Origin: Octopus vulgaris
Taxonomy: Eukaryota
Length of the DNA: 64,000 nt
Direction of reading: 5' to 3'
NCBI GenBank assembly: GCA_951406725.2
Contig: OX597825.1
Location: 27,590,001-27,654,000 of the forward strand
The position numbers and the translations under genes are program-made. Below, piece after piece: positions 4,955 through 63,468 of this stretch (position 1 is the first letter of the stretch; each line of letters begins with the position of its first letter). The notes under the pieces were generated by a model, which worked only from the letters and a program-made list of their open reading frames with translations, did not search any database and had not been told where the DNA came from.

Positions 4955-4992
4955 TCTTTCTGTTGAAGAGCGTAGGCTCGAAACGTAAAAGA
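4955..4992 (+). ncRNA. Minimal type I hammerhead-like motif (A6U core variant) in a PLE-type terminal repeat
   Basis: Stem I UCUUU/AAAGA; core CUGUUGA plus an extra A; stem II GAGC-GUAG-GCUC; GAAA; palindromic stem III ACGU; cleavage triplet GUA. Confidence 0.65.
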
Positions 4993-5694
4993 CTTGTTTT
5001 ATTTATATTCCTGAGCGCCATACTAATACAGTGGTTTGTTTGTATTCCACCTGTCTTCGACTTTTGTTTATTTTCATAAAGCTTCCCGTTATATACATAC
5101 ATACATACATACATACATACATACATACATACATACATACATACATACATACATGCATACATGCGTACATACATACACAGGTATATGAACGTAATCGCAC
5201 AAGAATCTCTGAATTGGATTTTTTTTCCTGTTATCTTCTTGGCCAAAAGTCTCTACATCTTCGTAGCTACTTCTCCGAATCCTTCGTCAACGTGGGATTG
5301 AAGCATAAAGGAAATATCCGAAACAATGATGGTAATCTCAAAATACCTTTATATTTCATGTCAGAAACTGAACCTCCATGATTGAGAGATATAACTCTTT
5401 GATGACAAAAGAATTTACAATTTTCTTCCTACTTCCTGGTACTGCTTATCTTATGATTTGACTTTAAAGAAAATTGTCTGATATTCTCGAATTCGCTTTT
5501 TCAGAGTTGGTTTGAAAATGTTGTTTTCGTTATCATACAAAATTAAATAATGATTTGACGCTTAAAGGATTATGTATGTATGTATGTATGTATGTATGTA
5601 TGTATGTATGTATGTATGTATGTATGTATGTATGTATGTATGCATGTATGCATTATGTACTTATGCATTATGTAAGTAGGTAAGTATGTATGCA

Positions 5695-5910
5695 TTGTGG
5701 CCAGTGCCCCCTGACTGGCTCCTATGCCGGTGGCACATAAAAAGCATCCACTACACTCTGGGAGTGGTTGCCGTTAAGAAGGTCATGGAGCTGAAGAAAC
5801 ATTACCAGATCAGATTAGAGCCAGGCGATGTCGCTGGCTCTCCAGTCCTCACTCAAACCGTCCATGGAAAACGGACGTTAAATGATGATCATGTTGATGA
5901 TGATGATGAT
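5695..5910 (+). mobile_element. 3' fragment of a SINE/LINE ending in a (GAT)n tail
   Basis: Non-microsatellite block ending CATGGAAAACGGACGTTAAATGATGAT, a retroposon-type 3' end. Confidence 0.55.
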
Positions 5911-5977
5911 GTATGTGTGAATACGTACATACATAAATGCATACATATATATATATATACATATATATACATGTATG

Positions 5978-6014
<37 letters not shown>

Positions 6015-6019
6015 GTATT

Positions 6020-6114
<95 letters not shown>

Positions 6115-6785
6115 ATATGTATATATATATAGAGAGAGAGATAGATACATAGATATACACAGAAACAGACAGAGACTGGGCAGTAAATAGACCACCTAAA
6201 CAAGGCGCCAGAGGCGCCTTGTTCAGGTGGTCTGCATCGTTCATAGACTTTTAATTTTAAAAGGCTATTTACTTTTTTCCAAAGGGTAAATATTCATATG
6301 TGTATGCAAACTGCCATTCCTCCAATGCAATTCTGATTATATGTAATAAAAAAATATCTGAAATTCATCTTTTATATGCATTGCAAGGAGAATAAAAACA
6401 ATCCGTTTAGCAACACGCACGTTTTTGATTACTTTGAATGAATGAGATGCACATCTCATATGCCAATTAATTTTATTGAAGCTTTCAGAATATTTTCACT
6501 ATTGTTAGCATTTGAAAGGACCTAGGCTGTACACAAAATCTTCTTCGCATTCACACTGTTTACAGAAGGCTCAATATCCATATTTACAAGCAGATCTGCA
6601 TTATTAATGGACTGATATTAAGAGGAATTTTGTGTTAGAGAGACCTCCCAATTAGGGTTGTGTATTAATATAAACGTATCCTTGAAAAAAATAATATTTG
6701 ACGACAATATATTATACATAGTTCAGTTTTACTTGTTTTGTGTATTCATTATAAATCGTTATACAGGTGTATATAATTATGTATA

Positions 6786-7861
6786 CAGTCATGGCAGAAG
6801 TATATTGACACTACATAAAACATCGTTTTGCGTTTATTTTAACTTGAAGAGGATTGTATTTTTTTATTACTTGACATTTTTATGTCTCAGGTTTATATGT
6901 GTCTGCTTAATTATGCCATATATAAAAGAGGCATCGGAACTGTCCGAATTTCAAAGAGCCCATATTGTGGGTCAATCTGAAGTTTGACCTAGTCAGATAA
7001 AAATCGCAGAAACCCAGAAAGAAGGAGTCCACATCATCTCGCCCAGATCGGCCAGAACCTCCTGACAGGAATCTTCACTTCGTTAAGAGGATAATCCTCA
7101 ATGCAAGGCCCCTGACGTAGCAGAACAAGTTGATATCAATCCTAGTGCAGCTGTCGGGTATCTCCAAAAATTAACGACTAAGGCAGAGCAGCAAGAAGGA
7201 GGCTACTTCTTCGACAAGCCTACATCAAGCGTAGGAATCATCGGGCTGCTGAGATGGTCACTAGCATTTTGGGACACTGTCATATTCTCTAATGAATCCA
7301 GAATTGCTCTATTTTCTGACAGTGGTCGAGTGTGTCTCTCTGGGGACTTTATGATAAAGAATTTGACATGGAAAGATTTCAGCCAACAGTGAAACTCGGC
7401 AGCTATTCTGTGATGTCTAGGGGGCAGTGTAAAGCAATGGTCGATAAGAGCTGGTGGAGTGTGAAGTAAACCTAATAAACTCAGATGAATATCTATCCAT
7501 ATTGCAGAAAGGACTCCTTCCAATCTTCTCCAATGGTCAAATGAGTAAAGACTTTTCATGGAAGATGTGGTCCTTATAACGTCGCTAAAAAGACCCAAGA
7601 TTAGTTGAAAGGGAATGGCATTAAACGGCTACCATGGCCCAGCCAGTCACCAGATATGAATTCTATTGAATGCTTCTGGGGAATAATGGACAGATCACTT
7701 CATAAAAAGAACAGGAAAGCATCACCAAACCCAAATCGTTTGTGATTACTCCATGAAATTTGGCAATAAATTCCTCAAGAGAAGATTTGTCATCTGATCA
7801 GAACATGTCTAACAGGGTTCTTGCATTGAAAAATGCAAAGGGTATGTCTAGTAAATATTAG
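6786..7861 (+). mobile_element. Decayed Tc1-family DNA transposon (transposase pseudogene 6913-7861)
   Basis: TA|CAGTC 5' end. Motifs ELSEFQRAHIVG, WDTVIFSNES (catalytic D->N), FMED, WPSQSPDMNSIE and C-terminal NAKGMSSKY*. Multiple stops and frameshifts. Confidence 0.9.
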
Positions 7862-8115
7862 ATATTCACATTATAGTAATTAGAAAATAACTTGCTTCTA
7901 TAATTTCAGATTTAAATACATTTTATCGATTATAAGGAACCGCAAAAGGAACGCAAGACGTGTGTGACTGTGAAATATGTTTTAATTTCAGAGATACATT
8001 TTGATAAATCTGATAAATCAATTTCTTTCATTCACTTTGACTACAATCTATGGGTCGTTGTCATGTGTTCTGGTAGTGGGTAGATCCAGCACACTGAGTG
8101 TGGAGCATGACATGA

Positions 8116-8632
8116 TCAATAACGTGTATGCCCTTCCTGGGTGTTCAAAATGGCCATACATCATCGGTACACGAAGTCCATGAGGTGGTTAAAAAAGACT
8201 TTGGCACCTGTGCCCACACCCCGAGGAAATCCACCTCCAGTTCCATACAAATTGTCTGTCTTGGGAGCCCCTGGTTCAGCTGTCTCTTGGTTTCATTTCA
8301 CAATGGTTTAATCGGGTCCATATCCTGGCTATTAGCCGACCACGACATGATTCTCATGTTGTGCTGACGCAGGAAGTTCATGGTGACGCTGGCCGTGTGC
8401 GAGGGAGCATTGCCCTGCTGGAACACGTGGCCATGGTGCTGCGCGAAGAAGGGCACAGTATGAGGTCTTAGGACCTGGTCAACGCAGCTCTGCACTGTCA
8501 TGCCATTCCCTCTGTCTCAAGCCACATTTTGGAAAGCATGGAGCCCAGTTTTATCATTCAGGCCTATAACACCCCAAAGTATGATGGTTTGGCCACCCAC
8601 ACGTCTCTCTCCATGACACATGCGGCTCTGTA
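8116..8632 (-). pseudogene. Second Tc1-family transposase remnant (C-terminal half)
   Basis: GGQTIILWGVIG, VDQVLRPHTVPFF..VFQQGNAPSHTA, WSANSQDMDPIKPL and C-terminal QEGHTRY*. Confidence 0.88.
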
Positions 8633-9864
8633 GTTCAAGCGAACTGCTAACCGTTTGTTTTCTTGGTAGAGTTTCAGCAATGGTGTCCTGTAATTTGCAT
8701 TAGCTTCTTTGCCAAGCGGGGAGGTCACGTTCTACAATAACTAACCTACGTGTTTTATCAATTCAGATAATATTTCGTACCCTCTAATTTACATACATCC
8801 AATTTTCTAACGGTAGTGTACATTTACTTTCAAGTAAACAGAATTTACTTCTAGGCCATGGATAGATCGTTTATCGAGAACTAGACACCCGGTGATGATA
8901 TAGTCGTTTGTGTCTTTAAGTTGGTTGCATAGTTTAGATTTAACATTAGCCTTTTGCTTTATTATCGTTTTCGGAAGGTTTTTGCGTATATTTATTTTTT
9001 GTGAAGTTACAATCATCCTTTTCGTTGTCCCCATTAGTGCGGAACTTTTGTTTACTCTCGTATTGACAGAGGTAGTCTGCCAACTCTTGCAGAATACTAA
9101 CCATGATAGATTTTTGTCTTCCTTCGTTTAATATTATTGTCACTTTGCTTTGATTTTTAACGAGCTTTGTTTAACATTTCTGTTATTTTGTCTTTATCTA
9201 ACTCCTTCTCCAACGGTTTTATTAGCTTCTAGTTTATACAACGTTATGTTGTTATGTGTACATGAATCTGTTGGTTCTTTGATTCGCTAAGCTTGTTAAT
9301 TGACAGTCCCAGTCAGAACAAAAAAATATAGAGGGCAGGGAAAAGGAAAATGATTGTTGACAGAAACAGAATCTATGAGAAATTCATTCACTAATGTGGA
9401 TAACACTGGTTTTTCATCATCTAACACTTTTCCTGCATTGTTATCGATATTTCCTACTTTGAATTGATTTGATTGATAAACTGACGTTGTATTGGTACTG
9501 GTTTGCTTATCAACGGTAGCTTTTCTTGTCTATCCAGGATTTCAGAAAATTGAATTAGATATTGGTTCACCGATCAGTGGCACCTGACATAACTGTGTAT
9601 GTTTATAAGTTCGCTTCGTAACTACTTTACTCTGGATTGGATCTCCCTGTACACACATTTTACAACTGAATTATATCAGTTAAGAACATTCTAAATTTCG
9701 CGGCTTGTATCTAACACTCCCATGGAGAATATTCTTCGTGGTTAGACAGGAACTTTTAAAGTTTAACACAAACACCTGTCTCAGAGTTTACTCTAATGCA
9801 CACATTCGAGTGACCAAGTCACATACAAGGCCAATTATTGGTTTTAACTTAGCATCTAAGTTTC

Positions 9865-9916
<52 letters not shown>

Positions 9917-10374
9917 TATCTATCTATCTATCTATCTATCTCACTGCCAGAGCATTGATAATTTACCAGTATTTTAATGTTAGTACTTCAAGTGATTCAC
10001 GTTTTTCCTAATTCCCACAACATTCTATTATATTTGCACTTTTGTGTAAGAAGTATTTTGCAGTATTACTTTTCAATCCTCAAACACATAACTTACAGCA
10101 CATCCCTTATTTTCCTTGATCACGAGATCAATATAATCTTAATTCTTTTATCGTTTTACGATTCCTAGAGCAATTCGCGCTTGTGGTTTTTATTGCATCT
10201 TTTGTAAATGCCTCCATACTAAACGGTTGCTTGAATAACGTTTTACTCCTGGTTACTTTCGACCTCATTATGAGTAGCCTCCAGTAAAAAAATCTCGACC
10301 TGTTTCCTTTGTCTTCACCTCCGCCCCTCTTCTTGTTGTTCTCAGCATCAACATCGTCGGCATAATAATCATTT

Positions 10375-10800
10375 TAATAATAATGGTAATAATAATAATA
10401 ATAATAATGATAATAATAATAATAACAACAACTTAGGCGGTCTCCGTGAATTTCAACTCAAAGTGTAAAGGAGAACGAATGTTCACGATTCTCTCAGATT
10501 GCTGCATACTTAATGATGATGATGATGGTGGTGGTGGTGGTGGTGCTGGTAGTGGTTGTCGTGGTGGTGATGGTGGTGGTACTGGTAGTGATGATGATGA
10601 GGATGATGATGATGATGATGAGAAGAAGAAGAAGAAGAAGAAGAAGAAGAAGAAGAAGATGATGAAGAAGAAGAAGAAGAAGAAGAAGAAGAGGATGAAG
10701 AAGAAGAAGAAGAAGAAGAAGAAGAAGAAGAAGAAGAAGAAGAAGAAGAAGAAGAAGAAGAAGAAGAAGAAGAAGAAGAAGAAGAAGAAGAAGAAGAAGA
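10375..10800. repeat. Compound trinucleotide tract: (AAT)n, (GAT/GGT)n, (GAA)n
   Basis: Direct reading; (GAA)n spans about 10620-10800. Confidence 0.97.
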
Positions 10801-11214
10801 ATTTAGGGAGGTTTCTGACTTGCAGGGAAAAAGGAAGGGTGAACCAGATAATATCCCATTTTCTCACCAAATTGTTCCTACTTTGCCCAGTATTGTCATT
10901 ATTATAATAATGGTGCCGCTTCTTATGCTCGGGGTGGAGGTATTCAAGTGATGTGTGTAGATCTTTAATTTTGCAATAATTGTAATAATTAGTAAACCTT
11001 TACCTAATTTATTTTCAAATATTGTATCCTTTATATAATATATTTTCCTATTGAATCCACTCTCCGTTAATGCTGTGTCAAAGAAGGATGCAAAGTTATA
11101 ATTTTTTTTCCCTCGCAGAGAAGTTAGAGATTCTTATCGACACACCTTTGACTACTCCATTAATAACACTTTGGGGATGATTTGATAAAGCGTGAATATA
11201 CTTAATGGTTTTAT

Positions 11215-11315
11215 TATAAAGAAAAATTCCGGGGCTCGATTTGCTCGACTAAAGGCAATGCTCCAGCATGGCTGCAGTCAAATGATTGAAACAAATAGAA
11301 AAATAAAAGAAAAAA
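11215..11315 (+). mobile_element. 3' fragment of SINE family C followed by (GATA)n
   Basis: GATTTGCTCGACTAAAGGCAATGCTCCAGCATGGCTGCAGTCAAATGATTGAAAC matches the 3' ends of the 30846 and 31975 copies. Confidence 0.85.
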
Positions 11316-11344
11316 TATATTATACAAGAGAGACAGAGGGAGAA

Positions 11345-11418
<74 letters not shown>

Positions 11419-12088
11419 TGATAGACAGACGCAAACATACATCAATTTAATTACTATAAGCTTTATGTTATATTGTCCCAAGGACATTCAAAATAGCCAT
11501 TTCAGTCGTCAACAATTGTTAATAAGAAACCAACTGAAGCGCAAGCATTTCTGCATGCACACCCATCATGAGGAACATGAATGTAAATTGCGTAATTTAC
11601 GGTCTATTGCATTTTGTAACTTGCATGTGTAGTGTTATGAGCCGTTAAAAAGTAGCTAATTGACATTTTTTTTTAAATGTTCTACGTAATGAGAATATTT
11701 AAGTAGAGAATGCTTGTGAGTGCACCGGAGATAAAAGATTTGATCGGTTTGTGAGTAGGCCAAAGATAACTGAATGCCTAAACGTCTACCGCAATTCAAT
11801 TGTGTAGATGTTCAGGTTCTCTGCTCTGTAAGTACATATATCACGTAGGCGAGCTTTTCATTTGTCCTTTTAGGATATATAAATTAGACAAGACCTTTAC
11901 TACGGTGATTTCGTTTCTTCCCCTCTCTCTCCATCTGTCTCTCTCTCTCTCATTATCTCTTTCTCATTATCTCTTTCTCATTCTCTCTCTGACTCTCTCT
12001 CTGCTACTATCTGTCATCTAGGTTTGTCTATTTCCCTTCTATTGTCAAAGAAACAGGCCATGTTCGAACCAAGACGTTGAGTGTCACA

Positions 12089-12300
12089 TCTATTATAGAA
12101 AACCCGTTCTGTCTGTCTGTGTGTGTGTCTTCTAGGATTTCGGACATCCTCCATCCGATGGCGCTCAAATTTGATATGTAGATACCGACGGTATCAGCGC
12201 GTGTATAATTCCTGAAAAAATTACAAAAATCGATTCCAGGTGAGAATGCGATCGATAAAGTGAATAAAATCGTTTTTCTTTGGAATAGAAAAAAAATCTA
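12089..12300 (+). mobile_element. Possible 5' end of a non-autonomous Helitron
   Basis: A|TCTATTATAGAAAA followed by (CTGT)n and CATCCGATGGCGCTCAAATTTG, resembling invertebrate Helitron 5' ends. No convincing hairpin-plus-CTAG 3' end found. Confidence 0.4.
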
Positions 12301-13543
12301 TCATTATTTCTTCTTTTGCTGGTGTCTGAAATTTAGGTAAAATCAGTGTTTCTCAAAGGGGAGACCTATGGGACGGTCGGACATGTTATTTTCAGAAAAT
12401 TCGGTTTAACCGTTTGACAACTCTTCACCGTCCATTGGACGGGGATGGGGGGTTGCTCGTTATTTATAAGACAAGCGTCTTAATTCCTATTTCTTTGGAT
12501 TGACTCCGCTATGGCAAGCAAATCTAATTTATTATTGGACATCAATAATTTCTGTCGGGCGATTGACAGTATAATCCATTTTCGATTAAAATATTAATTG
12601 GAACGTAATTAAGACAGTATTGGTCACATATTGATTCCGCAATTGCTCTGAAAATGGTTCAGTGTATTTTTTTTTATTTACTATGCATATATTTGTAAAA
12701 CTGTATACGTTGAGTTAATAATGTATTTTATTTCTAATTTATGAATGATTCGTACATTGTTGAACTTGCACATTGTTCATTAGGAATGATATGTAAGTAA
12801 AGAATTTGATTTAGTAGGTGGTGTTAATTTTAAATTATTTGATTGACACACATGTATAATTGGTCACTGTTTGTGTTAGAGTATATAGTGAAATGTTTTA
12901 CTACATAGTTCCAATCAAATAGCTGATAGTTATAACACTAGTTACAATCTTGCCTCGATACAAATCTATTTCGTTGCCATGCTACCATTATTTGATAATA
13001 TGATAGTTTGTTTTCATTTTAATAATGCTGACAACAACAATTTTAGAGTATATTTTGCGATTTGTGTAATTGTAGCCGTCATTGTAAATTAATATATTTT
13101 TACCTTCGAAACGAACCGTGAAAATGTTATGCATTTGGGAATTGGTGTTAGTAAGTGAACATATATATAATAAAATAGAATAATAAATGAAAATATGTGT
13201 ATGTACAAATAAGCTTAAGCATGTATAGACAGATACATATAAATATATTTATACAAGATTAATACCTATCATATTTGTATATTCCATATGTATGTGTTTG
13301 CGTGTGTGTTTATGTGTCTGTGTGTGTATGTGTGTATGTGTGTGTCTGTGTATGTTTGTGTCTGTGTCTGTTAGTGTAGACATTGTAATTACCATCAATG
13401 CTGTATTTTCGTCCTTTACCCTCTTTATTCTTTTAATTCTTTGTCTTTTCTTCACAATCATCCCCACATCATCATAATCATCATTTCCTTTCCTTCTACT
13501 CGTCATCAACATGTTTATCATCGCCGTCAATATCTAAGTCGGA

Positions 13544-13766: not shown

Positions 13767-13797
<31 letters not shown>

Positions 13798-15630: not shown

Positions 15631-15661
<31 letters not shown>

Positions 15662-15665
<4 letters not shown>

Positions 15666-15935
15666 TGTTGTGTCTGGGGAGAGTCATTTTCTTTTTGTGC
15701 CTTATAACTTAACACACTCACCGGTAGATTTTCCACTTATTCCTTACTTTCATTTTCCTAAAATTTTCGTTGCGTCTTGCAACCTTTTCAATAGTCTTGG
15801 CTCTTATTGAAAATGTTGCAAGACGCAGCGAGAATTTTAGGAAAATAAAAATAAAGGATAAGTTGAAAATTTACCGGGAAGTGTGTTAAATTATAAGGCA
15901 CAAAAAAAATCACTCTCCTCCGACAAAACAGAATA
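15662..15935. mobile_element. About 270-bp fold-back element (inverted PLE-type terminal repeats) with a U3-A8 hammerhead fold on each arm
   Basis: Arms of about 130 bp are reverse complements centred near 15798. Minus arm 15758-15794 reads CUA-UUGAAAA-G-GUUGC-AAGAC-GCAAC-GAAA-AU-UU-UAG. Confidence 0.8.
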
Positions 15936-15990
15936 TGCTTCAACACACGAACTCACATAAAGAATCTAGCAAAACAAATACAAAAATGAA

Positions 15991-35834: not shown

Positions 35835-36123
35835 GGTGATGTACTTGCATAGCAAATGACCTGATCGGAGATCGTGTGCTGGAACGAAGACAATTGTAGT
35901 GTGTAAGGTGTTTATAAGACACTTAAGAAACACACAAAACAGTTAGATTCACTTCAACATTTAAATTTATGTTGCCAAAATATTTTCGTTGCTTTGAGAC
36001 CGCAACCTGTTCACTGACAGAATACCGAGATGCAGAACGGAATTTTTGTCAGTGAACACACAAAGATCTAACGGCTTTTGTGTGTTTCTTAATTGTCTTA
36101 TAAACACCTTCCACGCTGCAATT
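35835..36123. mobile_element. Fold-back element of PLE-type repeat family B with a G3-C8 hammerhead fold
   Basis: Inverted arms (AAGGTGTTTATAAGACA.TTAAGAAACACACAAAA and its complement), with an internal deletion in the right arm. Homologs at 45303-45431 and 59241-59417. Confidence 0.8.
35973..36019 (-). ncRNA. Type I hammerhead fold with a G3-C8 core
   Basis: UGUCA-GUGAACA-G-GUUGC-GGUCUCAAA-GCAAC-GAAA-AUAU-UU-UGGCA: 5-bp stems I and II and palindromic stem III AAUAUU. Confidence 0.7.
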
Positions 36124-37883: not shown

Positions 37884-38071
37884 TGGTGTTCATATATATA
37901 TATACCTTCGAAACACGCATTGAGTCGAAACAGGGGCAGCTGATGAAGTGGAATATGCCTTGTATTGTTTGTCTTTTACTGTTTTTTCGCTGTTAAAAAA
38001 AGTCCGTTTCCTTGTTTGATTCTATGTTTTCGTTTCACGTTGTGTTCTACGTTTATTTGTGGTGTCCTGTA

Positions 38072-45233: not shown

Positions 45234-45298
<65 letters not shown>

Positions 45299-45302
45299 CG
45301 AT

Positions 45303-45431
45303 TTCAGCGTAGAATGTGTTTATAAGCCATTTAAGAAACACACAAAAAGCGTTAGATTCACTTCAACACTTAAATTTAATTTGTGAAAATATTTTCGTCG
45401 CTTTGAGATCGCGTCCTGTTCACTGACAAAA
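45303..45431 (-). mobile_element. Single arm of repeat family B with a degenerate G3-C8 hammerhead
   Basis: UUUGUCA-GUGAACA-G-GACGC..GCGAC-GAAAAUAUUU-UCACAAA, with one mismatch each in stems I and II. Confidence 0.75.
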
Positions 45432-45649
45432 CGTCGTGCTGATGCAAAAACATTTTTCTTAGGAAAATACGTATTTAAATAACTTTTAATGTCATCATTA
45501 ACGTAAGCGAAACAGGTCGACAAGCAGAATTTAAAATATATTTACAAATATATTAGAACTCAGTAAAGCGCCTGCTATTTCCTTCTTTAATTTATTATAT
45601 ATATTACAACTCACCACTTGGGGATAATCGAAAATCTTCCCTTTCTGTT

Positions 45650-45711
<62 letters not shown>

Positions 45712-45815
45712 GAAAATGAGGTAATCAGATCGGATGGTTCATATTTATAGATATTTATTTATATATTACATTTTTTACATATATATCTATCATATCATTC
45801 AGATCATATCATTCG

Positions 45816-45862
45816 GATTATTAGCGCTTTCTCCCAATCCAGTGGGGTTTTCAAATCAAATC
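45816..45862 (-). ncRNA. Type I hammerhead fold with a U3-A8 core
   Basis: GAUU-(UG bulge)-AU-UUGAAAA-C-CCCA-CUGGAU-UGGG-A-GAAA-GCGC-UA-AU-AAUC; the first pair of stem II is mismatched. Confidence 0.55.
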
Positions 45863-46629
45863 AATTCCTTTGTGGGGAATTTGAACATTTTATAGAGTTT
45901 CGTAGCAGTGGGGAGGAATAAGACAGTATAAGAGGGTGAGGAGGAAGTGAGACAGAGAAAACATGTGTGTATATGTATGTGTGTGTGTGTGTGTGCGTTT
46001 GTATCTGAGAGGGAAGAAGAAGTATTTCCGTTGGCCTGCTGGACCCCCTATGGTTTTCTAAGAATTTTGGTTCTCTGTCTATTCTGGTGTCACTGAGTGT
46101 GTGGTGTGGGTAGGCTGGCCGGACAAATGTCATTTGGGGGTCATACTTTCTATGATCGTTTTGTGGAAGTGTGTGTGTGTCTCTCTGTGTGTCCGTGTGT
46201 GTTTGTGTGCGTGTGTGTGTGTGTGTCTCTGTGTGTTTGGAGAAGGGGAGAGAGACAAAAAGAGAAAAGGGAAAATAAAAAAAAAAATTTTTTTTTTAAA
46301 ATTTTTTTTAAATTAAAAAAAATTTTTTTTTAAATAAATAAAAAATAAATTAAAATAAGGGAGGAAGTGGAGAAGAAGAAAAAAATATTTTTGCGTGTTG
46401 ATATTTATACCAATACATATATATACACACACAGACTTATACATAGAATATTTGAAAAAAACCTTTTTATCGGTTCAAAATGAACAACCAAATTACACCA
46501 TCTTGAAAATTGTATATCATAGGAAAGTTAAAATTAAAGTGACAATTAAAAGGTAAAGATGGAAGTAAATTATAAAGATAATAATATAATATAATGTATA
46601 TAACAGGCAATACACATATACACACACAC

Positions 46630-51282: not shown

Positions 51283-51324
<42 letters not shown>

Positions 51325-51332
<8 letters not shown>

Positions 51333-52166
51333 ATATAGAGGGCATTATACATACATGCCAGAGGGCATTATACATACATGCCACACGCTAAGAGGGACAA
51401 TTAGTCATTTCTACCAAAAATATTACATTTTTTTTTAAATGTCTTACTTTGAAAAATTGCATTCGGTGGGATTAGTAATATTTTTGGTAGAAATGACTAA
51501 TTGTCCCTCTTAGCGTGTGGCATGTATGTATAATGCCCTCTGGCATGTATGTATAATGCCCTCTATATATAAATTAATATGTTCAATAAGAAATAATTAT
51601 TTTCGAAATTTTTTCTCTTATGAGGTTTTCACGCTATCTACCTGACAATTTCTTGTTAAGTTTTCCTTATTAAGTAGTTGTCCTTAATTGCTAAATTTTT
51701 ATTCCGAAAAAACTTCTCCTTTTCCGAAATGCAATTCGTAAAAGTCTGCCATTTACCGGATGTAATATATGTAAACTCACCCATGTGCTTCGTTGATGTT
51801 GATCAGTTAGCTGATCGGCTTAAGCGAGGCAGGGTCGTTTATGTATGATACATCCAGGCCTGCTGATGAATACGTAAGTATGAAATCACTGTGATACAGG
51901 TCTATATTTTTTAAATGTCTTACTTTGAAAAATTGCATTCGGTGGGATTAGTAATATTTTTGGTAGAAATGACTAATTGTCCCTCTTAGCGTGTGGCATG
52001 TATGTATAATGCCCTCTAGCATGTATGTATAATGCCCTCTATATATAAATTAATATGTTCAATAAGAAATAATTATTTTCGAAATTTTTTCTCTTATGAG
52101 GTTTTCACGCTATCTACCTGACAATTTCTTGTTAAGTTTTCCTTATTAAGTAGTTGTCCTTAATTG

Positions 52167-52169
<3 letters not shown>
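51325..52169 (+). mobile_element. Young ORF-less PLE-type / retrozyme-like element: inverted repeat fragment plus two 263-bp direct repeats plus a hammerhead
   Basis: 51431-51693 matches 51907-52169 (period 476, one substitution seen); 51325-51426 is the reverse complement of 51475-51576; (TA)n on both sides. Confidence 0.85.
51856..51903 (+). ncRNA. Canonical type I hammerhead ribozyme
   Basis: Stem I AGGCCUG/CAGGUCU (7 bp, one G-U); core CUGAUGA; stem II AUAC-GUAA-GUAU; GAAA; stem III AUCA-CUG-UGAU; triplet AUA, predicted cut after 51896. Confidence 0.9.
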
Positions 52170-52202
<33 letters not shown>

Positions 52203-52489: not shown

Positions 52490-53286
52490 AAATAAGTAAC
52501 AAAGATTTCAAGATATTTGTGCATTACGGCCGTTTCAGGCGGCTCTATTTTATCGAACAATACATGCATTGCTTTAATTTGAAATCTGCCGCCTTCATCG
52601 GATGCAAGTTATAAGTTATCAACAGACAGCATACTGCATTATAATTTTTAGCAAATATATCATTAGAGCTACAAAAGGAAATAATTGTGTTGTAGCAGAA
52701 TAAATTTAGTCCTTTATTTTCTATTTCATGCCCCATTTAACTCTTAATAAAAGATTTTATGTCACATCCTGAGCATTTACCAGTCTCTGACTGACTTCTT
52801 CTGAGATTTGTTTATTTGTGTGGTCAAGGCAATATATAGCCATAGTGAAATAAGTTTCGGGTGAATATCCGACAGTATTTAATTTATTATCAGCAGCTAA
52901 AACTTCAATGTCAACTTTTGTTGGTTTTACTTCTTATTAGACGAAATTTACTTGATGCATTAGATCTTTTGATGGTGATAAGGGATAAATGAAAATTATA
53001 GCTAAATTACCACCTCATGACCTCCGTGTTATCCTCTTCTGCCACTCCAAATGATAAATTGGCGCATTCTTTCTAAGTTTATTCTGCTATAATAGTAGCA
53101 GCATGGAATTCTTTGATTCTCTAGCTCTGATGATGTATTTGCAAAAAGTTATAATGAAGTATCCTGTCTGTTGAAAACCTATACTTTGCATCTGAAGATT
53201 GGTGTAATGCTTGCATTGTTCGATTAAATGGAGTCGCCTGAAACGACCATAATGCTTTAATACATTGACATCTTTGTTACTTATTT
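52490..53286. mobile_element. Diverged inverted pair of roughly 215-bp PLE-type repeats, each with a damaged hammerhead
   Basis: 52490-52709 aligns with the reverse complement of 53073-53286; HHR folds at 52520-52606 (-) and 53187-53255 (+). Confidence 0.8.
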
Positions 53287-53752
53287 GCTTTTTATTCACC
53301 TTACTTCGAGCTGTGCGGATAATACCGATCTTACTTGGTACATCAACGTAAGTACCTAATTCAACTTAATCTTAATTATTCATATATGTATATTTATAAT
53401 TTTTGTATTTGATTCTCAAGATTCTCGACATGAGGTTGTGTGTTCAGCAAATAAACAAATCTCTTTATATCTTGGAAGTGATTTTGCGCCAATAAAAAGC
53501 ACAGACAGACGCGCTTTCTCTCTCTCTCTCTGTCTCTTACTTATATACACGCGGAAATAGGGATATAAACATAAATATATACATATACACATTCATATAC
53601 ATATGTCCAGAAATTCACCTATATGCATAGATACATCCATGCACTCGTGCATACATATATATGTATATGTGTATATATATATATATATTAAATATGTTAT
53701 AAAATACATACATATACCTACATATATATATATATACATACATGCATATATA

Positions 53753-54626: not shown

Positions 54627-54628
54627 TG

Positions 54629-54695
<67 letters not shown>

Positions 54696-54703
54696 TGATG
54701 ATG

Positions 54704-54775
<72 letters not shown>

Positions 54776-54779
<4 letters not shown>

Positions 54780-55280: not shown

Positions 55281-55320
<40 letters not shown>

Positions 55321-55361
55321 TAATAATAATAATAATAATAATAACAACAATAATAACAGTA

Positions 55362-55419
<58 letters not shown>

Positions 55420-55424
55420 TTATG

Positions 55425-55486
<62 letters not shown>

Positions 55487-55610
55487 GAAGAAGAAGAAGA
55501 AGAAGAAGAAGAAGAAGAAGAAGAAGAAGAAGGAGAAGAAGAAGAAGAAGAAGAAGAAGAAGAAGAAGAAGAAGAAGAAGAAGAAGAAGAAGAAGAAGAA
55601 GAAGAAGAAG
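55281..55610. repeat. (TAA)n followed by (GAA)n
   Basis: Direct reading. Confidence 0.97.
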
Positions 55611-58444
55611 GGCAACAATAGAAAAACAAGAAGATATTGCTTTCGTAACATGGTGCGCTAATTTCCATTACCTACGTTTCATTTTTCGAGGGGAACTCGA
55701 ATTAAATAGAACTTCGGATATGCTCAGACATATTCGCAATTTGGTATTAGACTGTGTACTCACTTTGTGTATAACACAGTCTCTAATTGTAAATAGTAAA
55801 TTAAAGATATAGTTTCCGAAGTGCAAATGGAATTACATATGCAATATTTTTTTTTTGCATATTCCGCATTTCACATTGTCTTTTAAGCGTTGACCGGACT
55901 GTTTATGTTTAAATATTTTGATATCACGCCGTCTCTCGTTTGCCTTTACATATAAACAACAATGGAATTGTAACAAGTTATTCGAGGCTCTAGAATATTA
56001 ATTAGCCCATAAGAAATTTAAAACAATACACTGTTTCGATGAGTGGGTTGCATTCTTCTACTTACCACGTGTTGGAAATCCTTCGTATTTTCATGACAGA
56101 TTTTAACGCGTATTTCTTGCAGAAGCCGGACTAATTGTGAACCTTGACCTCTCTCATTTTTAAAAGCACCTTTTCCATTGAAAGAGATTATATAACATTC
56201 AAAGGTTTTGAATAGAATTAATAGACGCTTTTTTGCGTGGGGGAAAAAGCTTGGTGCAAACAAATCGAATCCAGCGATTCAAATGTCAGTGACGTGACAG
56301 AGCTAATAATAAACAGATTTTAAAAAAAAGAAATTCATGCGCAGTACAAATAAGATATTTATTTAAATTTCAACGAAGAAGAACACGAAAGAGGAAACAA
56401 GAAAATCTGAAATGTATTTTAAATTTTTTTCATTAGGTAATTCTTTATTGTGGCTGTGATATTCGAATCAAAATTTTGAGATCCTGAAATTAATTCAAAT
56501 TTATTTACAATGTACTTCATTGCTTCAGTTGAATAGACCATTTTCTGCTACAAGAGTCTTTCTCTCTTTGTATATTTCTAACAGAAAATTTCCACAATTT
56601 CTATTTATTGCAAGTTTCAACAGATCGTTTTGTAAAAATCAAAGACGCGAAGACATATTTCTTTTAAATTCTTTCCAATGATTCTCTTGTCCAAGCACTT
56701 AAAATACGTTGCATTACAGGAAAATGCACTAAAATATAAAGACAGTATACACTTGTCTATATTATTTACATTTGCATTTATATTTCAAAAGTTGTATTCA
56801 CATGCAAAAAATAATAGATAACAGTAATGGGTTATTTTAAACATAATACAACAATATTCCCATACTCTACCATAAGCCTGTAACAATAAGCCTCCTTAAT
56901 TTTACAAACTATAATATAGTTCTATACATAATACACCCCGGAGATATTTTACATTAAAAATATACTTACAGAATGTCAAATGAATAAAAAAAAAATTATA
57001 TATTATATAATATAGTGACAGAAACGACTAGCAGTATCTAACAGTAACTAACTGTATCCATGCATTCTGTAGAAAAATGTCCGTCTAGTTACTCTTAAAA
57101 TCTTAACGAATCATGGGACATGTCAAATCAGTTTGTCGCCATGGTAAAGACTATAGATATAATGCTTTATGCATCAAGGCACATCCACTTAGCCAACCGT
57201 TAGAAAAAAGGTTCAAGTTCCTGTTATATCAAAGCCTCAAAGCTAAAAATGTGTTACTCAGGTTTGAAAAATGAAAGTGTATATTGAAATAGACGTAACG
57301 TACATACACTAATTGATAAATAAATATAATGATATAGGCGGAAAGCACCCTATTGTTGAGTGTTGATCTTCCAATGCAAAATACTGCAGGGGCTCACCCA
57401 TCTTATGCAGTAAATTGAAAATACTCCTTTAAATGTGGTTATGCATGCAATAAGTTAGATCGTTATCACGTATCACGTACAGGAACCCCGATTGCATTTT
57501 TACTAAGTAGTCATAAGTATTCTTTCCGGCTGTTTGTCTGAGACATAATGTTGTTATTCAACATGCCTGATTCCTTCTGCGTTTCCATGTATACTAATCC
57601 CTATTACTATTGATATGTGACAAAATTATACTTCTCTAGAGAGGACTAATAACACCAAAACACGACCTTTGTTTTCAGGGTCGTCTTAAACGCTGGATTC
57701 AATTAAACGACAGATCCACCCAAACGCATCGGATTTTGAAGTTTTTCAAGTATAAGATTAACTTATTTTAAAGGTGAAGTTGCCTTCCCAGCATGTTTTG
57801 TTTTCCAGATAGGAAATACTCGTAGATAAGTTTGTGTATTTTATTTTCATTGGTAATGTCCAGCGTGCACACGCGTGTGAGTTGTGTGACTGCATGTGTG
57901 TATGCGCGCGCACGTGTGTGTGGTTGTGCGTGTGTGAATATACATATATGTATGTATATATAAAATTCTCGTATATTCCAAATATATATGGTAAATGAAA
58001 GACGGAAGATGGAATATACGAGAAACTTTATTATTAATCACGACAATTGTTTTGAAACTGGACACTTAACAACTAGCTCAGGGGTATCGGGCGGTGCGAT
58101 GTGTCTCATCGAGTGATAAATAGATACATTTCCGCAATGTATCTTCTCATTTCGTAAGGAAAAATGCAGCAAAACAAAGGAAATATTTTTATTTATACAG
58201 GTAGACGCCAAAAAGAAACGAACACACAACACAGCGAGAAAAGTATTTAAAATAACCATTCACGGACAGGATTTTTAAGCGCCCTCACGCAAGTTACATG
58301 GCGCATGTACACTCGATCAGACAAGCACCCACAAAAATGCAAGCGTACGCACACGTGTGGATAGGTGCTCACACGACTACAAAGAGAATTAAATAGCCCA
58401 CTTGGTGTTTATAAGAATTTAATTCACCTTAGTGTAAATTATGT

Positions 58445-58710
58445 GGAGGCGCGTGGCTTAGTGTTTATGGTGCCAGCATCATGATCATAAGTTTGTGGTT
58501 TCGATTCCTGGACCGGGCAACGCGTTGTGCTCTTGAGCAAAACACTTCATTTCACGTTGCTCCAGTCTACTCACCTGATAAAAATGAGTAACCCTGCGAT
58601 GGACTGGCGTCCCGTCCAGCAGGGGATCTCATACGCCATAGAAACCGGGAAACCGGGCCCATGAGCCTGGCTAGGCTTTAAAAGGGTGCATTTATTATTT
58701 AATTATTATT
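58445..58710 (+). mobile_element. tRNA-derived CORE-like SINE (family E) with an approximately 14-bp TSD
   Basis: GGAGGCGCGTGGCTTAGTG..GGTTTCGATTCC..CTTGAGCAAAACACTT..CCCTGCGATGGACTGGCGTCCC; flanks AGTGTAAATTATGT (58431-58444) and AATGTAAATTATAT (58711-58724). Confidence 0.88.
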
Positions 58711-59240
58711 AATGTAAATTATATAAACAATTATTCAAATTCACTCCCATCGCATTGTGCGAAAGTATATTTACATGCGTGTAAGCATCTTGATAGTCTT
58801 TCAGAAATTCCATTAATGATCTGCTCATTGGTCCACAGAATATACAATGTTTTCAAAGGAGCAGAGCCGGAATCTCCCAGAAAAGATATTGCATGGTTTT
58901 GCATGCATTTCTATGGACCAAGCTATGTTATACATATTTTTGTCTTCCTTCAGTCTCCACACAATCGGCCAAAGATGCTGAATGTTTTGTATTGATGTTC
59001 TTGAAGCTGGCAACATGCTTGAGATAAGGATTCTGATATGAAACAGCCGCTGTCCCAATAAAAACATACGGCCCTCCACATGTATGCACGGTACATTCAT
59101 ATTCAAGAATTGTGCTCAAACAGAGCTTCATCAATGAGCATTTTGATTTTTCACTGCATGAGCATTTTATCATTTTTGTTTGTATATATGGCATTTCTAA
59201 CTTCATTTTCGACCTTTTTACCATGTAAGCTATAAAGTAA

Positions 59241-59417
59241 CAATTGCAGCGGATTATAGCGACGAAAATATTTTGACAAATTAAACTTAAATGTTGAAGT
59301 GAATCGAACGGCTTTTGTGTGTTTCTTAAATGGCTTATAAACACCTTCCACGCTGCAATTGTTTTCGTTTCAGCACACGATCTCAGATCAAATTACCTGC
59401 TATGCGAGTACATCTCC
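59241..59417 (+). mobile_element. 5'-truncated family-B insertion with a 12-bp TSD and a short 5' inversion
   Basis: GCTATAAAGTAA at 59229-59240 and 59418-59429; CAATTGCAGCG (59241-59251) is the reverse complement of 59351-59361. Confidence 0.85.
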
Positions 59418-61064
59418 GCTATAAAGTAAGCATTTCTATTATTACAATTTGGCCGTATTTGATGCTTTTCATTGCGGTATACATTTCCTTCGTTGGCATT
59501 TAGATGCTTGCTAGATCCAGTAGCCCGGTTATTGAACTGTTGTTGTATTTTACTATTGATTATGCAGTGGATAAGCTGCTCTAAATTAGCACAATTAGAG
59601 TAGGATACCTTCATGGTGTGCCGATTAAAAATAACATATCTATTAGATTGAAGAAAAGATTTGTCCAAAGCGGCAAAAAAACGTTCCAGCTACTTGTTTG
59701 TACATGTGTGTGTGTACGTGTGTGTGTGTGTGTACGTGTGTGTGTGTGTGTGTGTATAATACAGAAGCTACTTCAGATTGATCATATATTCTACTACCTA
59801 CAGAATAGGTTGTATAAAATATACCAATACTTGTAAACATATCGCTGTATTTATATTAAGATACACATTTACATTATGAGGATAAATAAGAATAAACGTG
59901 AGAATATAAGAATATTTCTACTGTAAACAAAACCAATTGTCTAGATGCTTGTTGCTCGGATTTTTCTAGCTTGAAATGTCAAAATATGTAAGGTTATTTC
60001 ATTAATATTACTTTCTGTGTAACGTTTAATGTAGTCAATACGTAACAAAAAAGCATGGCAGTGGTACTTTGACTTGGTCAAAATAACAAACAGAAGATTG
60101 TTTACTGAACTGAAATATAACTTATACCATATTTACATTGGTTTGCTAGGTTCATGATGTGAAATTGTATTCAAAGTTGGTTGTATCCGGAGAGGGTCAT
60201 TATGCCAATAATAAACATACGCACAATTTCTGTTTCACTTCGTTTATTATCATTAGTCAGTACTTTACCAATAACCAATTAACTAATCGATGGTTTGAGT
60301 ACCCTTTCGGTCAATCAGTGTACCGTCTAACTTGGCCAAACTGCTTTCCTCTCCACCCGCTATCTCCTCAAAGTCATGCCCTCATTATTGCATATCTATT
60401 TTAGGTCTGTCTACCTAGAATGTTGCTGAACATTTTTGCTGTTTAACATACATATGCAAGTGAGCCTCAATATTTTCCCTTGCTAATTTCCCATATTTCT
60501 CACCCATTTTCTGTTTCCAAACAAATTCTGCTTCCCTAACGAAATCGAGAGTACCCTCCGATATATATTTCATGACCAAGAATCATATTTCCTAAATATT
60601 CCCCGGATTTTCCCCATTAATGCTTTATTTTCCGAAAACAACACTTTTGTCATTTTTACTGAAAACCTATTCTTTTCTTTTCAACGCAAAACCTCCATTC
60701 ATACCCAAAAGGATTTTTATATATTCATATTATAATGATATGATTCTCCTGTGAAAGTTGTTGTAGTGCTAAATGAAAGAGAACGAAAACCCCACACAGC
60801 TCTTCCACAACGTCATTACTGTTTTGGCTCCTGGCGGATGCGAAAGCAATTTATCACAGTCCATTCCTATTGTACTATTTTCCATAGTTTGACTAAGGAA
60901 TTAATTTGAATGTCTTTACCAGAAATTGTTCCTTTCTTGGATTAAATATCCTTTAACAATCATCATTGATATTGGCATTTCTTCTATATTTCGCCATTTA
61001 TCTGTTTTCATAATCATTCACCAAACCCTCTATCTGTCTATAAAGCTGACTCTCTTTATTTCCT

Positions 61065-61097
<33 letters not shown>

Positions 61098-61281
61098 ATC
61101 TATCTGTCTTTCTTTCTTTTTTTCTATCTATTTATCTATTTTTCTACCTATGTAATTATTAATCTACCTATCTGTTAGCCTGTCTATCGATTTAATTTTT
61201 CTTTCTCCCTTGCACTTTCTTTCTCTCCCTAGCCCTCTCTCCTCCTCTCCCTGTTTCTCACTGTTTCTCTCTCTCTCTCTC

Positions 61282-61323
<42 letters not shown>

Positions 61324-61389
61324 TATTGTTTGAGATAGGAATACATAAGTGTGTATGTATGTATATTTATCTATCTATCTATCTATCTT

Positions 61390-61447
<58 letters not shown>

Positions 61448-61716
61448 CATTCACACACATATATATATTCCTATCTCAAACAATATCAACTACACTGTTT
61501 TATATTCATATATGCTGTACAAAATACGCGAGCAAGGACTTACACGTACACAGATGTTGACATATATGTAAGAGCAACATGTAGAGAGAAGGTGTGAGAG
61601 TGGAGGAAGAGAGAGAGGGGGAGACATCTAAACATACTCATATACATTTATATATACATGTATATGAATATATATACATATATTTATGTATACATGTGCA
61701 AATATATATACATACA

Positions 61717-61752
<36 letters not shown>

Positions 61753-63377
61753 TTCAGTGAGAGTTAGAGGTTGGAAATCGAACCAGCTACTATCTATTAT
61801 ACTGCTAGTAGTGTACCCAACTATTAACACCCAAGTGCTGTTTACTGCGTGGCAATTTTACTTTTGAGCGTAATAAATGTGTGAAGGTAAAAAGTGGTTC
61901 ACCCTTAATGTATACGGCAAGAATTCTATGAATTACTGGTACATATGTATGTTATACACAGTCTTTACACATGTATATATTCTCATAAATGTTTTAGAAT
62001 AAATAAATAGACATAATGTTATGTCTAACAGTTGTTGTACACTCTTTCTGTATCCCCTCAATTTTCTTCTTGCCGTGTGTATATATATAAAGTGTTATAA
62101 GGATTGCGTCTTACCTCTGCAAAATTGCAGAAGTAATGTTAGTTAACTTGTTATCATGATTTCGAATTTAGAGCCAAAAATACACTTGATTCTCTACAGC
62201 TTAGTCTACAAGTAGCAAATTCACGTATCAAAGTGTAATTTGGCGCTAAATTCGAAACCATGATGTCAAGGTTCCATCTTGCATTATTGCAGCGGTAAGG
62301 GGAAATAATTATTTCACTTAAGTTTTTTTTCTCAGCCATGTATATGAGTATATAGTGTTAATTTTTGTGGCTTCGGAGTATTTTGACTCTTATTTTCAGC
62401 AAAGTAGTTGTTTAAAACAGAGCCTTTATTATATAAATATATATATATATAAAATACAAAATGGGACAAGAACATAAAACAGTTAGGTGATACAAAAAAG
62501 GGGACAATAAAACATCCAGATAGACGATACAAAGAAAACAAGGACAGGTCATTCGTTATTTTTCCTCAGTCGAGATCCAGATTATCTTTGCAATTTCGGC
62601 TGGTAATACTCGAGATTGCTCCAATCTGGCCAGCCCCAAGGAAAATCTAAGCTAAGAGCTTTAGATCCCTTGGAAGAAGGCAGTGAATGCATACGAAGAC
62701 AAAGACTGAAAAAATGGAGTGTGTTACACAAATGCAAATAACAGGACATAACAACAGATGTCTTTCGACTATGGACGAATTATATGAAGCTGGCGTGTCT
62801 GAAAGTATAGCCTTACGGCAGGGATGCAATATTTAACAGGCACAGGGAGGAATGTAGATTTTGCCCAGACAGCGGTCGAATCAAGAAAGTAGGTTAGGCT
62901 TGGCCGAACACTGTCACGTGGGGAGAGAAGAGACAGAGGTAGAGGCAGAGGGACAGAAGAAATAAGGAGGGGTACGAAAAATGACAGGGACACAATGAGA
63001 TGAAAAGAGGAGGGAAAGTGAGCATGAAGAAAAGGCAAGAAAATGTGAGAGAGGGGGAACGAAAGAAGGAAGTAAGTGTGAAAGGGCTGATAAAAAGAAG
63101 GAAAGAATAAAAGAAAGGAAGAATAGAGTCGTACATGATTTAGATATATATATATACTTACATATAAGAGTCCAAAGTGTACGTACGCCGCCATATATAT
63201 ATATTAGGGAATAACAATTCTGGCCTCACATGGATACGAATAAATTGAATTATTCTCGATAACAAAATATGTCAGTTAGAGATAGAAGTCCCCATGCAAT
63301 TCATCAAATCCTAATATACATCACACATATCATAGAATTTTATTGTAATACTTACTATTTCAGTTCCAAATTTCTCT

Positions 63378-63468
63378 TCTACACGTGTTTCATGAGGTGC
63401 GCTTAACGTTTCCGAGACCCCCAGTCTTTTTCAGAAACATGTCTTTGCTGCAACCCCAATCATCAGGA
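63378..63468 (-). ncRNA. Degenerate hammerhead fold with a second hammerhead-like motif nested in loop II
   Basis: Outer: CUGAUGA, stem II UGGGGU/ACCUCA, GAAA-CACGUG-UA. Inner (63401-63438): GUUU-CUGAAAA-AGAC-UGGGG-GUCU-CG-GAAA-CG-UU-AAGC. Confidence 0.45.

What the first reader, a model, noticed from the sequence alone, without database searches (positions are those of the whole stretch)
4955..63468. Dense, diverse hammerhead repertoire with covarying 3-8 core pairs across PLE-type repeats
Seen: more than ten type I folds in apparently unrelated repeat families. Cores are C3-G8 (51863, 4960, 52601, 63466), U3-A8 (15791, 15807, 45854), G3-C8 (36014, about 45423) and possibly A3-U8 (45494). 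Most have a short palindromic stem III, and several have an extra base after A9. Established: positions 3 and 8 form a tertiary Watson-Crick pair in the active hammerhead, and compensatory swaps retain activity; PLE terminal repeats carry minimal HHRs proposed to cleave as dimers. Inference: a radiation of non-autonomous ribozyme-bearing retroelements invisible to CUGANGA pattern searches. Different stem III palindromes (ACGU, AAUU, AAUAUU, AGCGCU, ACGGCCGU, ACAAUUGU, ACACGUGU) could act as family-specific dimerisation codes. I cannot tell whether these families are already catalogued.
Basis: partly seen in the sequence, partly recalled or inferred. Interest (0 to 1): 0.8.

Follow-up and report, generated by a model that had tools for sequence, protein, structure and literature searches.

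The report
Penelope-element hammerheads with all four pairings
The window holds ten hammerhead-type RNA motifs from eight repeat families, which are end-pieces of Penelope-like jumping genes (shown for two families, likely for the rest), a known kind; across families the two paired core letters occur in all four matching combinations, two of which I did not find described in nature, and the motifs likely still cut RNA slowly, which is untested.

Summary
The ten named sites are real type I hammerhead motifs, not chance folds: 38 strict hits in 1.21 Mb of this genome against 0-7 per shuffle, with 33 of 38 Watson-Crick at 3-8. They form 8 repeat families (at least hundreds of copies each), and each family fixes one pair: C-G (4), U-A (2), G-C (1), A-U (1). 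Three window copies are decayed. The density is ordinary for this genome. Two families sit firmly, and one probably, at the 3' end of RT + GIY-YIG Penelope-like elements, so most sites are truncated stubs, not a non-autonomous radiation; one 476-nt non-coding unit does look non-autonomous. Penelope minimal hammerheads, U3-A8, the extra base after A9, palindromic stem III and multi-family repertoires are published (PMC4209133). I found no natural G3-C8 or A3-U8 families in the papers I could read; three key papers were unavailable. The palindrome 'code' is not family-unique (9 of 28 palindromes shared). Hint of cutting in vivo: 2 of 28 A3-U8 and 1 of 27 U3-A8 loci begin exactly at the predicted cut; a pooled tally shows no spike. 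The scan has noted these variants before on other pieces of this genome.

The parts
4955..4992 (+). Family B hammerhead: C3-G8, fixed A6U, extra A after A9, stem III ACGU, in a repeat copy at about 4876-5095; probably the 3' end of an RT + GIY-YIG PLE
   Evidence: 483 candidates; U6 in 25 of 25; sense PLE protein hits upstream in 2 of 25 loci
15758..15794 (-). Family E hammerhead: U3-A8, extra G, stem III AAUU, stem I 3 canonical pairs; one arm of a palindromic stub at about 15645-15936
   Evidence: 418 candidates; U-A in 30 of 30
15802..15842 (+). Family E hammerhead, opposite arm of the same palindromic stub; A14G in this copy
35973..36019 (-). Family F hammerhead: G3-C8, extra G, stem III AAUAUU; stub with a partly deleted inverted arm up to about 36123
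   Evidence: 2041 candidates; G-C in 28 of 30
45382..45430 (-). Family F hammerhead, decayed copy (one mismatch each in stems I and II)
45490..45522 (+). Family H hammerhead: A3-U8 family, 2-bp stem II with GAAA loop, stem III ACCGGU; this copy is decayed (G5C). 3' end of an RT + GIY-YIG PLE
   Evidence: 1568 candidates; A-U in 29 of 30; sense PLE hits upstream in 11 of 30 loci
45816..45862 (-). Family G hammerhead: U3-A8, stem III AGCGCU, stem I 2 pairs + bulge + 4 pairs, C.A at 10.1-11.1; young family; lies about 1.2 kb downstream of a PLE ORF in long copies
   Evidence: (1063 candidates, 11 hits 100% identical over 101 nt)
51856..51903 (+). Family A hammerhead: canonical C3-G8 core, 7-bp stem I, 4-bp stem II, near-palindromic 11-nt stem III; predicted cut after 51896
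   Evidence: (654 candidates)
51320..52178 (+). Family A element: non-coding 476-nt unit as a partial tandem (51431-52178) with an inverted 5'-truncated piece (51320-51426), between TA microsatellites
52520..52606 (-). Family C hammerhead: C3-G8 with family-wide U4C, long loop II, stem III ACGGCCGU
   Evidence: 389 candidates; C4 in 26 of 30
53149..53291 (+). Second, internally deleted and decayed family C copy, inverted relative to 52601
63378..63468 (-). Family D hammerhead: C3-G8, long loop II, stem III ACACGUGU, only 2 canonical pairs in stem I
   Evidence: (232 candidates)
59249..59383 (+). 3' half of a family F copy (no core)
79..162 (.). Inverted pair of 3' halves (GAAA + ACAAUUGU + stem I 3' strand, no core) of a further hammerhead family whose full form is in locus L011

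Best explanation
The motifs are minimal type I hammerheads carried near the 3' ends of Penelope-like retroelements (shown for families G and H, likely for the others), and they likely act as slow ribozymes that cut only as strand-swapped dimers or with help from the element's protein. Most genomic copies are 5'-truncated or inverted stubs (shown). The element's RT probably primes at nicked AT-rich DNA, starts 130-200 nt downstream of the ribozyme, copies mostly uncut RNA through the hammerhead, and often stops just upstream of it (inferred from copy ends and PMC11167929). The 3-8 pair, which forms in the active core, has switched by double changes in master lineages and is then fixed per family (shown between families); inserted copies decay neutrally (shown for B, C, H). 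Palindromic stem III is what a homodimer needs; its variety is probably drift under that constraint, not a selected code. Family A is probably a non-autonomous, retrozyme-like unit moved by PLE enzymes.
For: Enrichment over shuffles and 3-8 complementarity. Family majority pairs, seen again in copies picked by downstream sequence only. RT + GIY-YIG ORF upstream on the same strand: H 11 of 30 loci, G 3 of 25, B 2 of 25; shared DNA reaches -1136 (H) and -1311 (G) from position 3; 349 homologues of the ORF beside G, many with PF00078 + PF01541 in one protein. Two clustered 3' ends about 55 nt apart in E and F, inverted 5' pieces and microsatellite targets, as described for PLEs (passages of 10.1101/2021.04.23.441226; PMC11167929). 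Stem III a perfect palindrome in 8 of 10 hits of a scan that did not require it. Swapped-dimer energy per strand below the monomer hammerhead fold in 5 of 7 families evaluated. Copies starting exactly at the predicted cut: H 2 of 28 loci (L380, L386), G 1 of 27 (L360).
Against: No cleavage was measured. The pooled tally of 249 5' ends has 1 at the cut (its filters missed L360 and L386), F has 0 of 25 loci there, and no family A 5' end falls on the cut (nearest 9-10 nt away). A6U (family B) and U4C (family C) are fixed in successful families although changes at these positions lower activity (PMC3088659 passages: A6C, U4C). Stem I has only 2-3 canonical pairs in D, E and G; the E dimer is not favourable and the B dimer gives no gain. 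No sense, contiguous ORF was tied to A, C, E or F, and to D in only 1 of 25 loci. In the one PLE studied in vitro, hammerhead mutants did not affect insertion (PMC11167929).
Confidence: 0.72

Rival explanations
1. The folds are PLE-borne hammerheads kept for their shape (binding of the PLE protein, or a signal for RT or translation), and several families no longer cut.
For: Fixed A6U and U4C; very short stem I in D, E, G; nearly all copies run through an uncut ribozyme; catalysis was dispensable for insertion in vitro in PMC11167929.
Against: The 3-8 pair is a feature of the active core (PMC3884650 introduction), and it is kept in 40 of 42 lineages; three loci start exactly at the predicted cut; N7 varies freely while G5 and A9 stay.
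Confidence: 0.17
2. One reading: a radiation of non-autonomous ribozyme retroelements whose stem III palindromes were selected as family-specific dimerisation codes.
For: Family A is a non-coding 476-nt tandem unit; E and F never extend more than about 35 nt upstream of the core before folding back; stem III plus stem I are compatible in only 8 of 1560 ordered heterologous pairs.
Against: G, H and probably B are ends of ORF-bearing PLEs; 9 of 28 palindromes are shared, ACCGGU by 4 lineages; incompatibility follows from sequence divergence alone, and no test here shows selection for it.
Confidence: 0.1
3. The folds are chance matches in AT-rich, hairpin-rich repeat DNA.
For: A loose descriptor gives 53 hits per shuffle against 110 real; no hammerhead is among the 150 best Rfam matches listed.
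Against: About tenfold enrichment with strict descriptors, 87% against 33% Watson-Crick 3-8 pairs; the family of the decayed 45494 copy restores G5 and both stems.
Confidence: 0.01

Closest known systems
Minimal hammerheads (min-HHR) and palindromic-helix-III variants in pLTRs of metazoan Penelope-like elements, Cervera and De la Pena 2014, PMC4209133 (read: main text parts 1-2 of 4; supplement file 2 parts 1-2 of 3; file 1 not searchable)
   Same: Type I topology, short helix I, extra base between 9 and 10.1, palindromic helix III, several families per genome, mostly single truncated copies, opposite-strand pairs, U3-A8 families, a 450-bp tandem non-coding family in Drosophila willistoni.
   Different: Its alignment of 56 motifs shows C3-G8, U3-A8 and one U3.G8, no G3-C8 or A3-U8, no fixed U4C or A6U. 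Here stem III palindromes reach 8-12 nt, loop II reaches about 55 nt, and one family has a 2-bp stem II.
Poseidon element PAc of Anolis, Frangieh et al. 2024, PMC11167929 (read: parts 1-2 of 4)
   Same: Hammerhead upstream of two internal RT start sites (tail), AT-rich targets, uncut RNA as main template; G3-C8 partly rescues cleavage as a laboratory mutant.
   Different: PAc has C3-G8 and no reads ending at the cut were found; here G3-C8 is a natural family trait and a few genomic copies begin at the predicted cut.
Natural core variants, Perreault et al. 2011, PMC3088659 (passages)
   Same: Natural U3-A8 covariation, tolerated U4C, a low-activity change at position 6, 2-bp stem II.
   Different: Rare single cases there; here fixed in repeat families of hundreds to thousands of copies.
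Animal non-LTR retrozymes, Cervera and De la Pena 2020, PMC7229834 (passages)
   Same: Non-coding tandem units with a type I hammerhead; PLEs proposed as their movers; 16 hammerhead families in one coral genome.
   Different: Family A is 476 nt (published range about 170-400), occurs as about 1-1.6 units with PLE-type inverted pieces rather than long arrays; circular RNA not shown.
Small PLE-associated hammerheads that cleave as dimers, Lunse et al. 2017 (paper not held; seen only as a citation and summary in PMC6765202)
   Same: Shortened palindromic stem III, PLE association, dimer model.
   Different: Could not check whether it lists G3-C8 or A3-U8 variants.

Membership tests
PLE minimal/variant type I hammerheads (PMC4209133) | Type I order: stem I, core 3-9, stem II, GAAA, stem III, UH, stem I | tested here: met
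   All 8 families; stem I only 2-3 canonical pairs in D, E, G
PLE minimal/variant type I hammerheads (PMC4209133) | Short or palindromic helix III | tested here: met
   8 of 8 families; 8 of 10 hits in a scan not requiring it
PLE minimal/variant type I hammerheads (PMC4209133) | Unpaired base between positions 9 and 10.1 | tested here: inconclusive
   Present in B, E, F; absent in A and H; in C, D, G the first stem II position is often a mismatch (U.U, C.A) instead
PLE minimal/variant type I hammerheads (PMC4209133) | Located in the terminal repeat of an RT + GIY-YIG element | tested here: met
   H 11 of 30 loci, G 3 of 25, B 2 of 25 with sense PLE hits upstream; homologues carry PF00078 + PF01541
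PLE minimal/variant type I hammerheads (PMC4209133) | Same, for families A, C, D, E, F | tested here: inconclusive
   D 1 of 25 sense; C 1 of 30 antisense only; E 0 of 30; F 0 of 30 upstream; A 1 of 30, beyond its shared sequence; flanks only about 1.5 kb
PLE minimal/variant type I hammerheads (PMC4209133) | Self-cleavage, weak and as dimers | not testable with these tools
   Only indirect: energies and three loci starting at the cut
Endonuclease-positive PLE insertions | 5' truncation with inverted copy, optional 3' tail, AT-rich or microsatellite targets | tested here: met
   two 3' end clusters are clear in E and F, blurred by microsatellites in the others
Animal non-LTR retrozymes (family A only) | Non-coding tandem unit of about 170-400 nt with one type I hammerhead | tested here: inconclusive
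   476-nt unit, partial tandems up to about 1.6 units, no long arrays among 30 loci
Animal non-LTR retrozymes (family A only) | Abundant circular RNA | not testable with these tools
   Only contigs of runs not on record as RNA were available
Rfam hammerhead families | Covariance-model match | tested here: inconclusive
   None among the 150 best of 369 matches listed; 219 lower ones not shown

The most novel reading that the evidence does not exclude
One animal genome carries about 80,000 intact hammerheads in dozens of PLE lineages that use all four Watson-Crick 3-8 pairs as working ribozymes, including natural G3-C8 and A3-U8 cores otherwise known as laboratory mutants; copies that begin exactly at the cut record in-vivo cleavage by the A3-U8 ribozyme, and family A is a retrozyme moved by PLE enzymes.
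Probability: 0.4. Interest if true: 0.58.

Novelty: new variant of a known kind. Interest (0 to 1): 0.38.

Why it matters
The role of hammerheads in Penelope-like elements is open: they cut poorly in vitro and were dispensable for insertion in the one reconstituted system. A genome where the active-site 3-8 pair has been swapped in all four ways, in families that kept multiplying, offers natural mutants to test whether catalysis is what selection preserves. It also shows that CUGANGA-only surveys miss about four in ten intact motifs here. Family A offers a test of the proposal that PLEs move retrozymes. The general phenomenon is already published, which caps the surprise.

Tried and rejected
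Rfam scan: only microsatellite and hairpin matches to miRNA families among the 150 listed. The repeat finder on the window: swamped by microsatellites. Pfam and NCBIfam on ORF fragments: only sub-threshold RVT_1 and GIY-YIG hits; the PLE call rests and on motifs (the clade labels Neptune and Hydra are from recalled motifs and passages of 10.1101/2021.04.23.441226, not from a tree). Expression of family A: no RNA holder listed; four runs laid were contigs of guessed kind, which cover the unit and show head-to-tail joints that genomic tandems also give, so no conclusion. Within-family covariation: rejected as a test, since the core is no better conserved than flanks in B, C, H and stem variants look like CpG decay. 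A general spike of 5' ends at the cut: not seen (1 of 249). One cluster of 17 hits with an apparent A3-U8 core comes from the flank of family A with an 80-nt loop and was dropped as false before the lineage counts. Literature searches for natural G3-C8 / A3-U8: 2 papers; 0; 2; 0. The single 'G3-C8' mention in PMC3884650 was not among the passages shown. Lunse 2017, Arkhipova 2017 and Przybilski 2007 are not held, so the not-in-print claim is weak; supplement file 1 of PMC4209133 could not be searched.
Full report
Setting. The window is G000:C12:27590001-27654000 of a 2.8-Gb genome in 227 contigs, 34% G+C and rich in microsatellites. It is probably a cephalopod genome; that is a guess from composition and from earlier notes of this scan, not tested. 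The window holds no long real ORF.

Observation. Each of the ten cited coordinates is position 3 of a type I hammerhead frame. I searched the genome with each site. Candidate counts, which are lower bounds, were 654 (A, 51863), 483 (B, 4960), 389 (C, 52601), 232 (D, 63466), 418 (E, 15791/15807), 2041 (F, 36014/45423), 1063 (G, 45854) and 218, later 1568 with a better query (H, 45494). Only the best 25-30 loci per family were aligned. The 3-8 pair is fixed per family: C-G in A 11 of 11 distinct contexts, B 24 of 25, C 27 of 30, D 25 of 25; U-A in E 30 of 30 and G 20 of 20; G-C in F 28 of 30; A-U in H 29 of 30. These loci were picked by likeness to a query containing the core, which favours conservation. 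Two checks reduce that worry: the H query carried G5C, yet 27 of 30 loci have G5, and loci picked by downstream sequence alone show the same cores for F, G and H. Family B has U at position 6 in 25 of 25 loci and family C has C at position 4 in 26 of 30.

Chance. A descriptor that left positions 3 and 8 free gave 38 hits in 1,214,000 bases (the window, 150 kb beside it, and 100 stretches of 10 kb at round-number places), 33 Watson-Crick: C-G 19, U-A 10, G-C 4. Twelve local shuffles gave 0-7 hits each, 14 of 42 Watson-Crick; reversed sequence gave 4. A relaxed descriptor gave 63 hits (54 Watson-Crick) against 4-10 per shuffle. Scaled up, this is roughly 80,000 intact motifs in the genome (my extrapolation). 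The window has 2 strict hits and 2.0 are expected, so it is typical. Clustering all held sequence gave 42 lineages (clusters of two or more, or single hits scoring 11 or more, one false cluster dropped): C-G 29, U-A 8, A-U 2, G-C 1, non-Watson-Crick 2, both singletons. Permuting position 8 gave a mean of 22 and a maximum of 34 against 40 observed. Lineages share ancestry, so the number of independent swaps may be as low as three. Within families the core is no better kept than its flanks in B, C and H: inserted copies decay, and covariation exists between families. E and F share the extra G, a nearly identical stem II and an AU-rich stem III, and differ by U-A against G-C, which is probably one double swap.

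What carries them. An ORF 1.2 kb upstream of family G in L228 encodes RT followed by a GIY-YIG domain in frameshifted pieces; its 349 longer homologues are 600-900-residue proteins, many with PF00078 and PF01541 together, the layout of endonuclease-positive Penelope-like elements. PLE protein matches lie upstream on the same strand in 11 of 30 H loci, 3 of 25 G loci, 2 of 25 B loci and 1 of 25 D loci; none does for C, E or F, and the one for A lies beyond its shared sequence. DNA shared between copies reaches -1136 (H) and -1311 (G), into the ORF; for B it reaches -726, just short of the protein hits. All families show variable 5' ends, inverted 5' pieces and 3' ends at microsatellites; E and F have two 3' end clusters about 55 nt apart, the PLE tail (PMC11167929; passages of 10.1101/2021.04.23.441226). 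E and F are mostly palindromic stubs with a fixed centre 12-30 nt upstream of the core. Family A is a young non-coding 476-nt unit in partial tandems of up to about 1.6 units with inverted pieces, like the 450-bp tandem family of Drosophila willistoni in the supplement of PMC4209133 and like animal retrozymes (PMC7229834).

How it likely works. By analogy with the Anolis element (PMC11167929), the PLE protein nicks AT-rich DNA and starts reverse transcription at one of two sites downstream of the ribozyme, mostly on uncut RNA. Many copies stop just 5' of the ribozyme: 20 of 34 G arms with starts at or before +4 lie between -45 and -35 from the cut. A palindromic stem III cannot close in one molecule but pairs fully between two; the swapped dimer is lower in energy per strand than the monomer hammerhead fold in A, C, F, G and H, equal in B, and unfavourable in E (D not evaluated). 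To look for traces of cutting I took 80 loci picked by sequence downstream of the predicted cut. Two of 28 H loci begin exactly at the cut: in L380 a piece of the element's own RT region is joined to it, and in L386 both arms carry the same foreign sequence before it. One of 27 G loci does (L360, both arms), and L365 is compatible within a 3-nt microhomology; 0 of 25 F loci do. For H, 2 of 19 loci with an end inside the fetched stretch at one named position out of about 150 has a chance near 0.007 (hand calculation, three families tested). Against this, a pooled tally of 249 5' ends had one at the cut and family A none. I read this as a weak hint of rare cleavage.

The dimer code. Among 40 Watson-Crick lineages there are 28 palindromes; 9 are shared, ACCGGU by four lineages. 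Of 1560 ordered heterologous pairs, 38 are compatible in stem III and 8 also in stem I. Families are therefore mostly unable to cross-pair, but the palindrome alone is not the identifier, and divergence explains the pattern without selection.

What is known. PMC4209133 already reports minimal hammerheads in PLE terminal repeats, thousands per genome in up to eight families, the extra base after A9, palindromic helix III, opposite-strand pairs, U3-A8 families and weak dimer cleavage. PMC3088659 reports natural U3-A8, U4C and A6C. G3-C8 is a laboratory rescue mutant in PMC11167929. I found no natural G3-C8 or A3-U8 family in those texts or in four targeted searches, but Lunse 2017 and Arkhipova 2017 were not available. 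Earlier notes of this scan describe G3-C8 and A3-U8 families on other pieces of this genome; they are unchecked notes and not independent support.

Verdict. Observation largely right, with corrections; interpretation partly right. A new variant of a known kind: PLE hammerheads with all four 3-8 pairs. Interest 0.38.

Noticed in passing
window 37905-37960 (+): A repeat family with hammerhead pieces in another order: CCUUC-GAAAC first, a GUC or GUA triplet next, then CUGANGA (N7 varies) followed by a G-run that can pair with the CUUC. At least 8 further copies in held loci.
   Followed up: partly
window 63368-63482 (-), family D: Beyond its two canonical pairs, stem I can be drawn as tandem G.A pairs, a 3-nt bulge and a further 6-bp helix, the layout of a kink-turn (pattern recalled, not from a call). 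About 6 of 25 copies carry A at the first G.A position, which does not fit. Family E also has a tandem G.A after its 3-bp stem I.
   Followed up: partly
families C, D, G: The first position of stem II (10.1-11.1) is often a mismatch (U.U or C.A) rather than a G-C pair preceded by an extra base.
   Followed up: no
window 10433-10999 (-): Fragment of a PLE-like ORF interrupted by long trinucleotide microsatellites; similar by eye to ORF pieces in L154 and L134.
   Followed up: no
L002-L030, family F centres: The centre of the palindromic stubs occurs as an asymmetric form and as a perfect palindrome, and the two arms end independently at either tail position, which suggests two separately primed cDNAs joined at the centre.
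   Followed up: partly
window 45297-46160: Three hammerhead families (F, H, G) lie within 450 bases of each other, suggesting repeated insertion into one AT-rich spot.
   Followed up: no
L346-L371, family G: Many short copies begin at 40-45 nt before the cut, right at the 5' edge of stem I and directly after a TA microsatellite.
   Followed up: partly
window 3514-3703: Tandem array of a 25-nt unit, 7.6 copies.
   Followed up: no
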